Below are positions 15,001-18,000 of a DNA stretch of 35,118 bases, in pieces. Made by a program: the position numbers. Position 1 is the stretch's first letter. Every line of letters starts with the position of its first letter. This stretch comes from a virus (taxonomy: Duplodnaviria; Heunggongvirae; Uroviricota; Caudoviricetes), in the IMG/VR virus record IMGVR_UViG_2529293069_000022; one strand, 5' to 3'.

Positions 15001-18000
15001 ATTGGCTCTGCGGGACAGAATAACGCGGATCATATTGCCATTGTTAATTACCCCAATATCTCCATCTTCAATTGACTCAAATAATTCAGTGCTAATAACA
15101 GAGTAATCAAAGCATGGTAGAATGGCATCATTATTGCTTTCAGCAACTACCAGCAAATTGGGCAAAAAGAATAAAGGGTTCACTGGTTTTTGTTTGCATA
15201 ACCGATAGAACCCTGTGGGCACATTCTTTTTTGAAGAAAAATGAAAGATATCGTTCCTGATAACCTCAGACATATGCCCATCCTTTTAGCATCTCAGCCT
15301 TAGGACCACCTTCAGAGATGGAGTTCATCAGATACCTGAACATTCCCTTGTGATACTGACAAAACGTTGAACGACTCCTATCACCGACAGGCTCACCTTG
15401 TACACTTATGTTCTGGCATGGGTCTGCACCGCAAAATGGTTGATACGCGCATGTATCACAACCTGGCAGAGCAAAATTGAACGATGAACTCAATACTGCG
15501 TTATAGTAAGGACTCTTGGAAAATGATAGCGTCTTAACCTCACCCGCACTGAACTCCGTTTCAGGGTTCACCTTCTGCAACATACGGCTCTCATCGCTAC
15601 CATATACTCGACCGTCATAATTGAAAAGAATACTGTTAAGCACGACCCCACTTGGCGACTTCAAATCCGCATAACCACTAAAACCGGGATTGAAGATCCT
15701 TTTCAGATGAATGGAGGCCGAATGTTCCACAACCCTTATCCCTTTAATGTTGATCTTAAGGATTTCATCTATCAACGAGGCATAGAAACTTAAGTATTCG
15801 TCCATAGAAAAGGTGAACGATGCTTTTTGTGCAAACCCATAGGGACTAACAGGTCGGATAAACATGTCCTTGAGGCCAAGAGATAAGTGAGCCTGGACAA
15901 TCGATTCAGGGTGCTTTAGTAACTGTAGTAACCGTTGCAACGCGATCAGCGCCTAAAGACCGTTTGATAGCCTCTATCCCTGACACTGTTCTACTGTAAG
16001 CAAGCCCATGACCAAGAATTCGATTACTGTTGTGAACAACTTCCTCACCATCAAGCGAAACAGAGAACGTTATGTTCCTGTCTCTCGACCATTCAAGCAT
16101 ATCCTCATTCAAGACAGACAGGCTTGATGCTACAACCATCTCAAAATCGGTGCTTCCCAGCGTTTCAGCACATTGCTCATAGATAGACTGAATTAAATCG
16201 AACCGCAAGAGTGGCTCTCCACCCTGTATCTCTATCTTGTAAGGTGGTGTCGATAGTTTTTTGATAGTAGAAATGATATCAGGGATGAGAGCGGGATCTA
16301 GATCATAACCAGAGGCGTTCACGGAAGCTCTACTGACCTGACAATACTTGCAGGTATGGTCGCAACGTAATGTGGGCACAATCATGAAAATTGGCCTGAC
16401 CGCCAGTTCATTCATCAATCGTTTTGCAAAAGCAGAACTTAAAGCATAGGGAGCTATAGCCGATGAGCTTTCGTTGGTTATGAATAGCTTGCTTTCGAGT
16501 GCGTTTGATTGTTCCGCATTGATTTGCTCATTAGAAAGATCAAGCAGCTCTTGCTCATCAATGAAGTGATGAAAACCAGCGAGGTTGCTTATAAACACCT
16601 GTCCATTAGGCAATCTGTCAAAATTGAATGGCATCAATTCCATTACGATAGCCTTTCATCGACACTGCGAAGCACTTTATTGACAATAGAATCTCTCAAC
16701 GCCCCTGTTTTATGCTGTAGTTTTTCTCGCAAAGTGTAATCATTCAGCAGCCTCTCGAATTCATAGAGGCATTCGGGGCTATCGTTTTCAAAAGAGATTG
16801 TCCAGGAGGATATACCTTCACAAAGCTTCCATTGAGTAAGAGAAGTCATCCAGTACAGGCTATTGCGTATAACCCATTCAGAATAAACATCTTTTTTTAA
16901 CGTCCTTTCGCACATTGCCATTGCCTCACAAAACTAATAATCACAATCAGCAACCGCTTTTAAAGCGGATTTTTCCTATAGAAATGAGGATACACCATTT
17001 AATTAATATGTTACAGGATGTTAGCATCTGAATGGCGATTCTGAAAAATGATGTTGCTTATCCCTATGTAAATAATGATATTTTCCGATTATCATCAGCA
17101 GCTCGAACAGGTGAAAATTTAGGAGGCTAACATGCCATTATAAGTATGGGCTTCAAGATCTTTTTGTCGGTCATGGGATGAGAGCTATTGCCTCAACAGT
17201 GCTTAAAGAGAAAGGATTTCCTCCTGATGTGATTGAAGCTGCGTTAGCACATATCGATACTTACGAAGTCAGGAGAGCCTGCAATCGTGCTCAATACCTT
17301 GAACTGCGTAGAGAGATGATGCTCTGGTGGGGTGAGTATGTAGAAGCAGCATCCTTTGGAAACTCATCAATCAGTGTTATTGGCAAGTTAACCTCAACAG
17401 AAGGATATACCGATTAAAATCTTTAGCTGCTCTCATAATTGAACTTTCTCACATTTATGAGCAAGATAGTGAACATTTTGCATTTCAATCGCACTAAAAA
17501 TGATTAGTATGTCTATGTAAGAATTCTGATTTATAGCTATGTTCAGTAAAATTTTCATAGGATAAAAAATGTCTAACATAGAGGAAACACTGCCAGAAAG
17601 TGCGATCAGTTCTTGGGGGGGGGGTTTGTTTACCAAGGGAAAGTAGCTCTTTATCACTGCCTGAAACTATTAACGGCAAAATCATTTCAACAGAGAATAA
17701 TTGATAATTTTGAGTTGCAATTAGATAGCACAGATGACTTTGCTATTTATTGTGATGGCAAGGTGATATCAACTCATCAAGTGAAAGCAAAGCTATCGCA
17801 ATATCGTTCTGAATATGTCAAAGCTATTTATAAAGCAGCATGTATAGCTACTGACTGTGATGAAAATACAATCAGATATTTTCATGTAGCTAAAGAACTT
17901 GATAATTTTGAAAATTATACAAGTAATGATGGGAAAATAGTGGAGTTTTACAGTTATGGCGATATAAAATACTGTTTACTATCAAAAATAAATGAATTGA

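What the first reader, a model, noticed from the sequence alone, without database searches (positions are those of the whole stretch)
17131..17417. Remnant of a second P4-type integrase separates two cargo modules
A C-terminal integrase fragment (catalytic HGMR and AALAH segments and the Tyr region retained) lies between the Hxs/543-aa module and the Lamassu-like module. This suggests that two islands once sat in tandem, or that cassettes are swapped by recombination within integrase genes. It gives a natural boundary for defining the mobile unit of each system.
Basis: seen in the sequence. Interest (0 to 1): 0.45.

Follow-up and report, generated by a model that had tools for sequence, protein, structure and literature searches.

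The report
Dead integrase remnant inside composite island
This is the decayed tail of a second integrase gene, left where a mobilizable island that normally inserts at a proline tRNA gene was fused into an island at the tmRNA gene; it is an ordinary scar already annotated as a pseudogene, but it dates and delimits the two defence modules.

Summary
Window 17030-17417 (+) is the 3' third of a P4-family tyrosine integrase gene: 47% identical to the intact integrase at 9998-11227 (E 2e-18), and nhmmer E 1.5e-66 against a profile of its own gene family. It is dead. It lacks integrase nt 1-716, has an internal ~146-nt deletion, two 1-nt frameshifts and an in-frame stop, and the nucleophile Tyr codon is TGC (Cys, 17280-17282). 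RefSeq already calls it "integrase, incomplete".

Full-length relatives (77-96% aa) sit next to tRNA-Pro(GGG), not ssrA. They head elements with the same backbone (cargo, relaxase, three-recombinase operon, DUF6387). In Klebsiella indica a full-length copy is colinear with window 17126-21757 (89.6%), running into the same Lamassu/ABC-3C operon. The fragment is therefore the native integrase of the right-hand module, displaced by the ssrA-integrase/DUF6119/Hxs head.

No att repeat lies at the fragment. The only att sites are at 9797-9832 and 34536-34549, so simple tandem accretion is not supported.

The same Hxs|integrase junction occurs in about 35 other loci, joined to remnants of very different decay. 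Window and L016 differ sharply only inside the remnant (p=3e-8). This indicates homologous exchange within integrase-derived sequence.

Verdict: ordinary, low novelty.

The parts
9797..9832 (+). Copy of the last 36 nt of ssrA (tmRNA). It is the right junction of the lambdoid prophage and the attL side of the ssrA island.
   Evidence: blastn to ssrA of strain A16, 98.7% over ssrA 3' end plus integrase leader. No tRNA or tmRNA gene in the window itself.
9998..11227 (+). Intact ssrA-linked P4-family integrase, the working integrase of the composite island.
   Evidence: Pfam Arm-DNA-bind_3, Phage_int_M and Phage_integrase all above cut-off. 96-99% identical copies directly follow ssrA in strains A16, G47-1, SX45 and F9792.
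13550..16921 (-). hxsA-hxsC-hxsB-hxsD operon (hxsB frameshifted). This is the conserved cassette to the left of the remnant.
   Evidence: PGAP names. 92-95% nt identity to six other E. coli loci. hxsC dS 0.15-0.20 to them.
16922..17029 (.). Hxs-side flank with no integrase homology. It is 94-100% conserved in all loci and contains a hairpin plus T-run at 16954-16968. It probably holds the hxs promoter/leader (inferred).
   Evidence: Alignment score to integrase nt 1-720 equals the shuffled mean. Binned identities. Terminator-like hairpin.
17030..17125 (+). 5' part of the remnant. It holds an integrase nt ~717-726 stub (TGAATGGC), then an internal ~146-nt deletion, then strongly decayed sequence. 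It is shared by descent with the 'deleted-type' remnants of other Hxs loci.
   Evidence: Alignments. 73-90% identity to other loci in the first 40 nt, falling to 39-75%.
17126..17417 (+). 3' part of the remnant (integrase nt ~960 to the stop). It has 1-nt deletions at 17139/17140 and 17154/17155 and an in-frame TAA at 17142-17144. The 79-codon ORF is 17178-17417, HGMR 17172-17183, AALAH 17238-17252, and the Tyr->Cys codon 17280-17282.
   Evidence: Colinear with the K. indica full-length integrase 3' end at 89.6%. 83% nt identity to the E. coli tRNA-Pro integrase.
17418..17568 (+). Intergenic stretch inherited together with the integrase tail and the Lamassu/ABC-3C operon. It probably holds that operon's promoter (inferred).
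   Evidence: 97-100% identical to L016 and K. indica and 85% to L020; unrelated in loci with other cargo.
17569..21768 (+). Lamassu-family / ABC-three-component operon. The lmuA-like gene is frameshifted at a G10 tract, MComp1 follows, and the LmuB ATPase is split into two ORFs. This is the cargo natively downstream of the integrase that is now a remnant.
   Evidence: PADLOC LmuA 5.9e-20, LmuB 9.8e-27 and 7.8e-45. Intact 412/228/773-aa versions in L016, L020 and L027. Poly-G comparison.
34536..34549 (+). attR of the ssrA island. It is an imperfect copy of the last 14 nt of ssrA (CGCCAGC..CCA) followed by native ssrA-downstream DNA.
   Evidence: Window 34536-34700 matches K. indica ssrA end plus downstream at 85%. 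Sequence comparison.

Best explanation
The feature is an inert pseudogene relic. It is the last ~40% of a tRNA-Pro(GGG)-specific P4-family integrase gene that once headed the mobilizable-island backbone (Lamassu/ABC-3C cargo, relaxase, three-recombinase operon, HTH, DUF6387) now occupying window ~17126-34278.

That backbone lost its own att sites and the first ~716 nt of its integrase when it was joined to a head carrying an ssrA-specific integrase, DUF6119 and the Hxs operon. The whole 24.7-kb composite (9833-34549) now depends on the ssrA integrase and ssrA att sites.

The remnant encodes nothing functional. It persists because it is wedged between two divergently transcribed defence operons, and possibly because the flanking non-coding DNA carries their promoters (inferred).

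Its one 'activity' is passive. As a patch of integrase-derived homology shared by many related elements, it has served as a crossover substrate through which the Hxs head and the right-hand cargo have been re-assorted.

Shown: homology, decay, lineage of the parent integrase, colinearity with an intact version, absence of att repeats, identical junction in many loci, and mosaic identity.

Inferred: the order of events, homologous recombination as the exchange mechanism, and the reason for persistence.
For: Homology and decay.

The parent lineage is tRNA-Pro-linked:
- The nearest intact E. coli gene (83% nt) follows tRNA-Pro next to yejM and heads an element 94% identical to window 27741-34278. 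That element has perfect 21-bp direct repeats.
- Eight of nine close full-length orthologues checked in Pectobacterium, Brenneria, Pantoea, Erwinia and Enterobacter follow tRNA-Pro(GGG).

Intact counterpart: the K. indica integrase has the same C-terminal tail (..WWGEYVEAASFGNSSISVIGKLT..) and is colinear with window 17126-21757 at 89.6%.

Nesting: the ssrA-type attR is at 34536-34549, and homology to the tRNA-Pro element stops at 34278, before that element's arm sites and attR.

Independent second case: contig L020 has ssrA, then the ssrA integrase, then 40 nt, then the tRNA-Pro-type integrase from nt ~693, then the same Lamassu operon, with no Hxs.

Exchange within the remnant:
- The identical junction is present in all 6 other E. 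coli loci read in detail, 4 assembly contigs and 21 of 23 metagenome contigs.
- hxsC dS is only 0.05-0.20, while remnants differ by up to ~40%.
- Window versus L016 shows a breakpoint, p=2.9e-8.

No conserved ORF: there are nonsense codons in L016 and frameshifts in other lineages.
Against: - The parent's tRNA-Pro specificity is inferred from relatives. Only the C-terminal third survives, and that part does not determine site choice.
- One 96%-identical full-length copy (K. indica) lies 1.5 kb downstream of ssrA behind a partial tRNA-Pro, so the lineage is not strictly confined to the proL locus.
- Homologous exchange does not easily explain how remnants of very different age (L016 ~96% like an intact gene; A16 ~82%; deleted type 60-70%) share exactly the same first nucleotide of integrase homology. 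Crossovers would have to resolve within ~10 nt of the homology boundary.
- Promoter scans in the flank are no better than shuffled sequence, so the 'wedged between promoters' argument is untested.
Confidence: 0.8

Rival explanations
1. Classical tandem accretion. Two islands integrated one after the other at the same attachment site, and a later deletion removed the internal att site and the 5' part of the downstream integrase.
For: - Both integrase sequences are on the same strand, in the order expected for a tandem array.
- In K. indica a full-length copy of the remnant's lineage, with the same Lamassu cargo, lies just downstream of ssrA. An ssrA island inserting there would create such a tandem.
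- Strain A16 has two remnants in a row.
Against: - The two integrases are only ~46% identical, and their intact relatives use different genes (ssrA versus tRNA-Pro GGG).
- There is no att-like repeat at or near the remnant.
- The tRNA-Pro-derived backbone ends at 34278 and is followed by an ssrA-type attR and native ssrA-downstream DNA. It is therefore inside the ssrA island, not beside it.
- The same junction is found in an element at tRNA-Thr with a different integrase at the opposite end.
Confidence: 0.12
2. Site-specific targeting. The Hxs cassette (or its carrier) inserts repeatedly at one defined site, nt ~717, inside this integrase gene, so the junction is recreated independently rather than inherited.
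For: - The junction (..GTTAGCATC|TGAATGGC..) is identical in ~35 other loci, joined to integrase alleles of very different decay. These include one ~96% identical to a functional gene right from the first base.
- Three further truncation points (nt ~693 in L020, nt ~640 and ~811 in A16 remnant 2) fall in the same part of the gene.
Against: - No recombinase, direct repeat or inverted repeat is associated with the junction.
- The other truncation points are not at the same nucleotide.
- No reciprocal junction (integrase nt 1-716 joined to the other end of a cassette) was seen in any locus.
- A gradient of identity away from the junction (96-100%, then 73-90%, then ~60%) fits homologous exchange with variable crossover points.
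Confidence: 0.05
3. The 79-codon ORF (17178-17417) is expressed as a small protein, for example a catalytically dead integrase C-terminal peptide that modulates the resident integrase or the neighbouring operons.
For: - The frame from 17155 to the natural stop is uninterrupted in the O55:H7/O157 lineage.
- A 95%-identical 79-aa ORF exists as a cluster of 34 sequences.
- Three near-identical metagenome copies keep the frame.
Against: - L016, 97% identical in this stretch, has two nonsense codons (W51*, L71*).
- Deleted-type remnants are frameshifted in several places.
- Among the closest copies, codon differences are 5 non-synonymous to 4 synonymous, too few to show constraint.
- The start codon lies inside the HGMR motif with no evident Shine-Dalgarno sequence.
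Confidence: 0.03

Closest known systems
P4-family (CP4-57 IntA-like) tyrosine integrases of tRNA/tmRNA-linked genomic islands
   Same: Clear sequence homology to the C-terminal catalytic region (H-x-x-R, second His, Tyr region). The full-length relatives have the Arm-DNA-bind_3 / central / catalytic architecture and sit beside tRNA-Pro with 21-bp direct repeats.
   Different: Only ~40% of the gene remains. It is interrupted by a deletion, frameshifts and a stop, the nucleophile Tyr is Cys, and there is no adjacent att site. It is a pseudogene, not a member in any functional sense.
Composite or accreted integrative elements (tandem ICE/IME arrays; integration-module exchange in IMEs, e.g. streptococcal IMEs, PMC5357655, PMC5704250)
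   Same: Two elements of different origin are fused into one unit that uses a single integrase. An integrase pseudogene marks the seam, and a relaxase-bearing mobilizable backbone is present.
   Different: There is no internal att site. The partners have different target genes. The displaced element is nested inside the att sites of the other rather than lying beside it.
Variable defence 'hotspots' bounded by conserved genes in integrative elements (e.g. pipolins as bimodular defence platforms, PMC11551731; P4-like satellites, from my own knowledge)
   Same: Defence cassettes (Gabija or DUF6119, Hxs, Lamassu/ABC-3C, nucleotide-binding systems) vary between otherwise related elements immediately downstream of an integrase 3' end.
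   Different: Here one of the conserved anchors is not a live gene but a decaying integrase remnant.
GInt elements (ginABCD operon; PMC5385486)
   Same: The right-hand backbone carries a four-gene operon of two tyrosine recombinases, a 542-aa protein without Pfam hit and a 131-aa protein (28251-32804, -). This matches the GInt gene order and sizes.
   Different: Homology to Gin proteins and GInt ends was not tested. The remnant under study is unrelated to these recombinases and lies 11 kb away.

Membership tests
P4-family tyrosine integrase (functional gene) | N-terminal arm-type DNA-binding domain (Pfam PF13356) | tested here: not met
   Absent from the fragment; present in the intact neighbour at 9956-11224. 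The DNA profile matches only positions 919-1224 of ~1240.
P4-family tyrosine integrase (functional gene) | Central/core-binding domain (PF22022) | tested here: not met
   No hit in the fragment. Integrase nt 1-716 are missing.
P4-family tyrosine integrase (functional gene) | Complete catalytic domain with R..K..H-x-x-R..H..Y | tested here: not met
   Only H-x-x-R (17172-17183) and the second His (17238-17252) remain. PF00589 scores 23.2 bits, below the 27.1 cut-off. The Tyr codon is TGC. The Tyr assignment rests on spacing relative to lambda Int H308/R311/H333/Y342 (my knowledge) and on invariance of Tyr in all other aligned sequences.
P4-family tyrosine integrase (functional gene) | Uninterrupted reading frame | tested here: not met
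   Two 1-nt deletions, an in-frame TAA and a ~146-nt internal deletion.
P4-family tyrosine integrase (by descent) | Significant sequence homology to family members | tested here: met
   E 2e-18 to the resident integrase. nhmmer E 1.5e-66 to the tRNA-Pro lineage profile. 89.6% nt identity to the K. indica gene.
Tandemly accreted islands at one att site | Internal (hybrid) att repeat between the two units | tested here: not met
   No copy of the ssrA or tRNA-Pro 3' end within 16900-17600 or elsewhere, apart from 9797-9832 and 34536-34549.
Tandemly accreted islands at one att site | Both integrases of the same site specificity | tested here: not met
   The resident integrase follows ssrA in all loci. 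Relatives of the remnant follow tRNA-Pro(GGG) in 8 of 9 genera-level checks and in the E. coli loci inspected (L007-L009); 19 E. coli genomes carry the gene at >=99.8% identity. Specificity of the extinct gene itself is not testable.
Integrative mobilizable element (right-hand module) | Own integrase, att sites and relaxase/oriT | tested here: not met
   The integrase is a remnant, there are no own att sites, and the relaxase carries an internal stop. The intact relative in strain SX23 meets all three.
GInt (right-hand backbone only) | ginABCD operon at one end, AT-rich other end, 10-11-nt imperfect repeats | tested here: inconclusive
   Gene order and sizes fit and match the description in PMC5385486. 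Homology to Gin proteins and element ends was not examined.

The most novel reading that the evidence does not exclude
The exact Hxs|integrase junction (integrase nt ~717) is not a single inherited accident. It would instead be the product of a recurrent, targeted event in which a defence cassette or its carrier repeatedly knocks out the resident integrase of tRNA-Pro-type mobilizable islands at one site, capturing their cargo for a different integrase. That would be a form of element-versus-element piracy acting on the integrase gene itself.
Probability: 0.05. Interest if true: 0.6.

Novelty: new member of a known kind. Interest (0 to 1): 0.27.

Why it matters
For this window the remnant settles the anatomy. 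The 24.7-kb ssrA island of the O55:H7/O157 lineage is a composite. An Hxs-bearing head with an ssrA integrase was fused to a tRNA-Pro-type mobilizable island carrying Lamassu/ABC-3C.

The only mobile unit left is the whole composite, and it is itself heavily decayed. DUF6119, hxsB, the lmuA-like gene, lmuB and the relaxase are all broken.

More generally, it is a clean worked example of how defence cargo changes integration site by integrase displacement. It also shows how dead integrase DNA can persist as a homology patch for module exchange. This is useful for people who delimit defence islands, but it is not surprising to specialists in mobile elements.

Tried and rejected
- **att repeats.** I searched for copies of the ssrA 3' end and the tRNA-Pro 3' end and for any direct repeat near 17000-17130. 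None was found, which rejects an att scar at the fragment.
- **Chance similarity.** Rejected.
- **Integrase homology upstream of 17030.** The alignment score equals the shuffled mean, so the apparent 'RMLASEW' match to 'RMLIEW' is only the 8-nt TGAATGGC stub plus coincidence.
- **Protein database search with the fragment.** It returned only short proteins (51-153 aa), that is, other remnants or contig-end pieces. It was not useful for finding the parent. DNA search and the GTDB scan found it instead.
- **Solved structures.** They cover only the N-terminal domains of this family, so the catalytic Tyr could not be confirmed structurally.
- **Promoter scan of 16800-17700.** Two hits against 3.2 expected, which is uninformative.
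- **GInt end hypothesis.** I considered that the three-recombinase (GInt-like) operon might define an element ending at the junction. I rejected this because no integrase 5' half lies at the other end, and HTH/DUF6387 beyond ginA are co-inherited.
- **Serine-recombinase carrier hypothesis.** I considered that a serine-recombinase/ParB/RepB head might be the carrier of Hxs inserting into the integrase. In the window that head is absent, and the shared block starts only at hxsA.
- **dN/dS of the 79-codon ORF.** There are too few differences to decide.
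Full report
**Source and layout.** The window is from the ssrA region of E. coli O55:H7 / sorbitol-fermenting O157 (100% match to strain 493/89, NZ_CP038412.1). From left to right it holds:
- a lambdoid prophage (1-8291; lambda cIII thermoregulator at 2056-2114) and a DUF4760 gene;
- a 36-nt copy of the ssrA 3' end at 9797-9832;
- a P4-family integrase (9998-11227);
- a 138-aa ORF, a frameshifted DUF6119 gene, and hxsA-C-B-D on the minus strand (to 16921);
- the fragment under study;
- a Lamassu-family/ABC-three-component operon (PADLOC LmuA and LmuB hits);
- a relaxase with an internal stop;
- a four-gene recombinase operon (28251-32804, minus strand), HTH, DUF6387, and the core gene ypjA.

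No tRNA or tmRNA gene lies in the window itself.

**Observation.** Translation of 17115-17414 aligns with the C-terminus of the intact integrase at 47% identity over 70 residues (E 2e-18). Pfam Phage_integrase matches profile positions 117-162 at 23.2 bits, under the 27.1 cut-off. PGAP already annotates 17148-17417 as an incomplete integrase.
- HGMR (17172-17183) and AALAH (17238-17252) are present. The residue aligned with the integrase AYNR tyrosine is Cys (TGC, 17280-17282).
- Every other remnant and intact gene aligned has TAC or TAT at that codon. Of three near-identical metagenome copies, two have Tyr and one also has Cys.
- That this Tyr is the nucleophile rests on the H-x-x-R / H / Y spacing known from lambda Int (my knowledge). 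Solved structures of this family cover only the N-terminal domains.

**True extent.** A DNA profile built from 15 full-length relatives matches window 17081-17384 (E 1.5e-66, profile positions 919-1224). Alignment with less decayed relatives shows the following.
- Integrase-derived DNA begins at about 17030 (TGAATGGC, integrase nt ~717).
- An internal ~146-nt deletion follows, then a very decayed stretch to 17125.
- There are 1-nt deletions at 17139/17140 and 17154/17155 and an in-frame TAA.
- Upstream, 16922-17029 has no integrase homology: the alignment score of 18 compares with a shuffled mean of 21.3.

**Parent lineage.** The protein database returned only short relatives of 51-153 aa, which are other remnants or contig-end pieces.

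DNA search found the nearest intact E. coli gene, at 83% nt identity over window 17126-17347, in 19 of 5426 genomes. It follows tRNA-Pro beside yejM and heads an element with the same backbone: cargo including an ABC-3C system, relaxase, the recombinase operon, HTH and DUF6387. In strain SX23 that element is bounded by perfect 21-bp repeats of the tRNA-Pro 3' end, and window 27741-34278 is 94.3% identical to it.

A scan of GTDB genomes found full-length orthologues (77-96% aa) in Pectobacterium, Brenneria, Pantoea, Erwinia, Tatumella, Enterobacter and Klebsiella indica. Eight of nine checked follow tRNA-Pro(GGG).

The K. indica gene ends ..WWGEYVEAASFGNSSISVIGKLTSIEG, the same tail as the fragment. 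Window 17126-21757 is colinear with it and its downstream Lamassu operon at 89.6%. So the fragment and the Lamassu operon are one contiguous piece of a tRNA-Pro-type island whose integrase was once complete.

**att sites.**
- No copy of the ssrA or tRNA-Pro 3' end, and no other direct repeat, lies near 17000-17130.
- The island's right junction is at 34536-34549. It is an imperfect copy of the last 14 nt of ssrA followed by DNA that in K. indica directly follows ssrA.
- Homology to the tRNA-Pro element stops at 34278, before that element's arm-type TTAGGCATA repeats and attR.
- The tRNA-Pro-derived backbone is therefore nested inside ssrA att boundaries. This argues against simple side-by-side accretion.

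**Distribution of the junction.** The six other E. coli Hxs loci read in detail carry a remnant at the same place, and the search that found them matched 39 genomes in all.
- These include an element at tRNA-Thr (thrW). It has a different integrase at the opposite end and a serine-recombinase/ParB/RepB head.
- Four assembly contigs carry an undeleted 153-codon version.
- Of 23 metagenome contigs with the Hxs flank, 20 have a remnant at the identical junction, one has a 30-nt stub and two have none.
- Strain A16 has two remnants in tandem (integrase nt 720-1226, and nt 639-724 plus 811-1238).
- Contig L020 shows an independent event: ssrA, an 83%-identical ssrA integrase, 40 nt, then the tRNA-Pro-type integrase from nt ~693 with a different internal deletion, then the same Lamassu operon, with no Hxs.

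Displacement of this integrase by an ssrA integrase has therefore happened at least twice.

**Mosaicism.**
- Relative to the window, the Hxs flank is 94-100% identical in 25 loci. In the roughly 20 deleted-type remnants identity then drops to 73-90% in the first 40 nt and to about 55-70% further on.
- hxsC synonymous divergence is only 0.15-0.20 to the window, and 0.05-0.12 among the others. The remnants are therefore far more divergent than neutral co-descent with Hxs allows.
- Window and L016 are 97-99% identical through Hxs and 95-100% identical from about 17234 into the Lamassu operon. In between they differ: L016 has an undeleted segment ~96% like the K. indica gene, and the window has the deleted, decayed type. 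Mismatches are 19/108 in 17126-17233 against 6/335 in 17234-17568, p=2.9e-8.
- The remnant tail and intergenic region co-vary with the cargo to the right (window, L016, L020 and K. indica share them), whereas the 5' stub co-varies with Hxs.

One point remains unexplained. Remnants of very different decay share exactly the same first base of integrase homology. Crossovers or mismatch correction right at the homology boundary could do this. A recurrent targeted event is the less likely alternative.

**No sign of function.** L016 has two nonsense codons in the 79-codon frame, other lineages are frameshifted, and differences among the closest copies are 5 non-synonymous to 4 synonymous. The promoter scan is uninformative. 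The remnant probably survives because it lies between two divergent defence operons whose control regions flank it. That is inference.

**State of the island.** The island is decaying as a whole.
- DUF6119, hxsB and the relaxase are pseudogenes.
- The lmuA-like gene is frameshifted at a G10 tract, which is G8 in L016.
- lmuB is split.
- Classical O157:H7 has lost everything from the ssrA integrase to the relaxase in an IS30-linked deletion.

**Comparison and verdict.** The feature is a pseudogene of a P4-family integrase and a seam in a composite integrative element. Both are known kinds (composite IMEs and integration-module exchange: PMC5357655, PMC5704250; defence-carrying integrative platforms: PMC11551731).

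Its interpretation is partly supported: there was a second integrase and it marks a module boundary, and recombination within integrase sequence is supported. It is not supported that two islands sat in tandem at one att site, and the modules are not mobile units.

Interest is low to moderate.

Noticed in passing
window 17569-17625: The lmuA-like (ABC-3C CTD1) gene starts at ATG 17569 in relatives (412 aa). In the window it is thrown out of frame by a G10 tract (17613-17622), which is G8 in L016 and G7C in K. indica and L020. PGAP rescues it with a TTG start at 17613. This is a possible slipped-strand on/off switch, or simply a pseudogene.
   Followed up: partly
window 19448-21768: The LmuB/ABC ATPase is split into 284-aa and 429-aa ORFs, although the DNA is colinear with the intact 773-aa gene of K. 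indica and L016. The Lamassu system in this strain is probably dead.
   Followed up: partly
window 26148-26330 (ORF 26052-27344, minus strand): About 30 tandem copies of GGCTCT lie inside a 430-aa ORF, reading as Glu-Pro repeats on the coding strand. The protein has a weak PADLOC PD-Lambda-4_B hit (4.7e-7).
   Followed up: no
window 28251-32804 (minus strand): A four-gene operon of two tyrosine recombinases (402 and 440 aa), a 542-aa protein and a 131-aa protein, the last two without Pfam hits. This is the gene order and sizes described for GInt ginABCD. It is conserved at 94% in the tRNA-Pro element of strain SX23 and absent from the smaller relative L020.
   Followed up: partly
window 1-9832: A lambdoid prophage is integrated into the 3' end of ssrA, between ssrA and the island. 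It duplicates 36 nt (9797-9832) and carries a DUF4760 gene (8784-9707) between its integrase and the junction.
   Followed up: partly
window 34536-34549: The island attR: CGCCAGC..CCA (an imperfect copy of the last 14 nt of ssrA) followed by native ssrA-downstream sequence. The 257 nt between DUF6387 and attR (34279-34535) are absent from the tRNA-Pro element and may hold the arm sites of the ssrA integrase.
   Followed up: partly
L027 (Klebsiella indica) 7155-9280: A full-length tRNA-Pro-type integrase is preceded by a partial tRNA-Pro (3' ~45 nt, 9030-9075). It lies only 1.5 kb downstream of ssrA, after a 401-aa ORF. This is an off-site or rearranged copy of the element, and its right end could not be read.
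   Followed up: partly
L004/L011 (E. coli TUM1887) and L016-L019: The same Hxs-remnant-cargo-relaxase-recombinase backbone sits at tRNA-Thr (thrW). A third integrase lies next to DUF6387 at one end, and a large serine recombinase plus ParB/RepB genes lie at the Hxs end. One backbone therefore serves three different integration modules.
   Followed up: partly
L125 (E. coli O157:H7 TW14359) 10689-20281: Classical O157:H7 keeps only the right part of the island (BamE-like gene to DUF6387) next to a truncated IS30. The ssrA integrase, Hxs, the remnant, Lamassu and the relaxase are gone.
   Followed up: no
window 16954-16968: A terminator-like hairpin (CCGCTTTTAAAGCGG plus T-run) on the + strand lies inside the 108-nt Hxs flank. 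That flank is more conserved (94-100%) than synonymous sites of hxsC.
   Followed up: no
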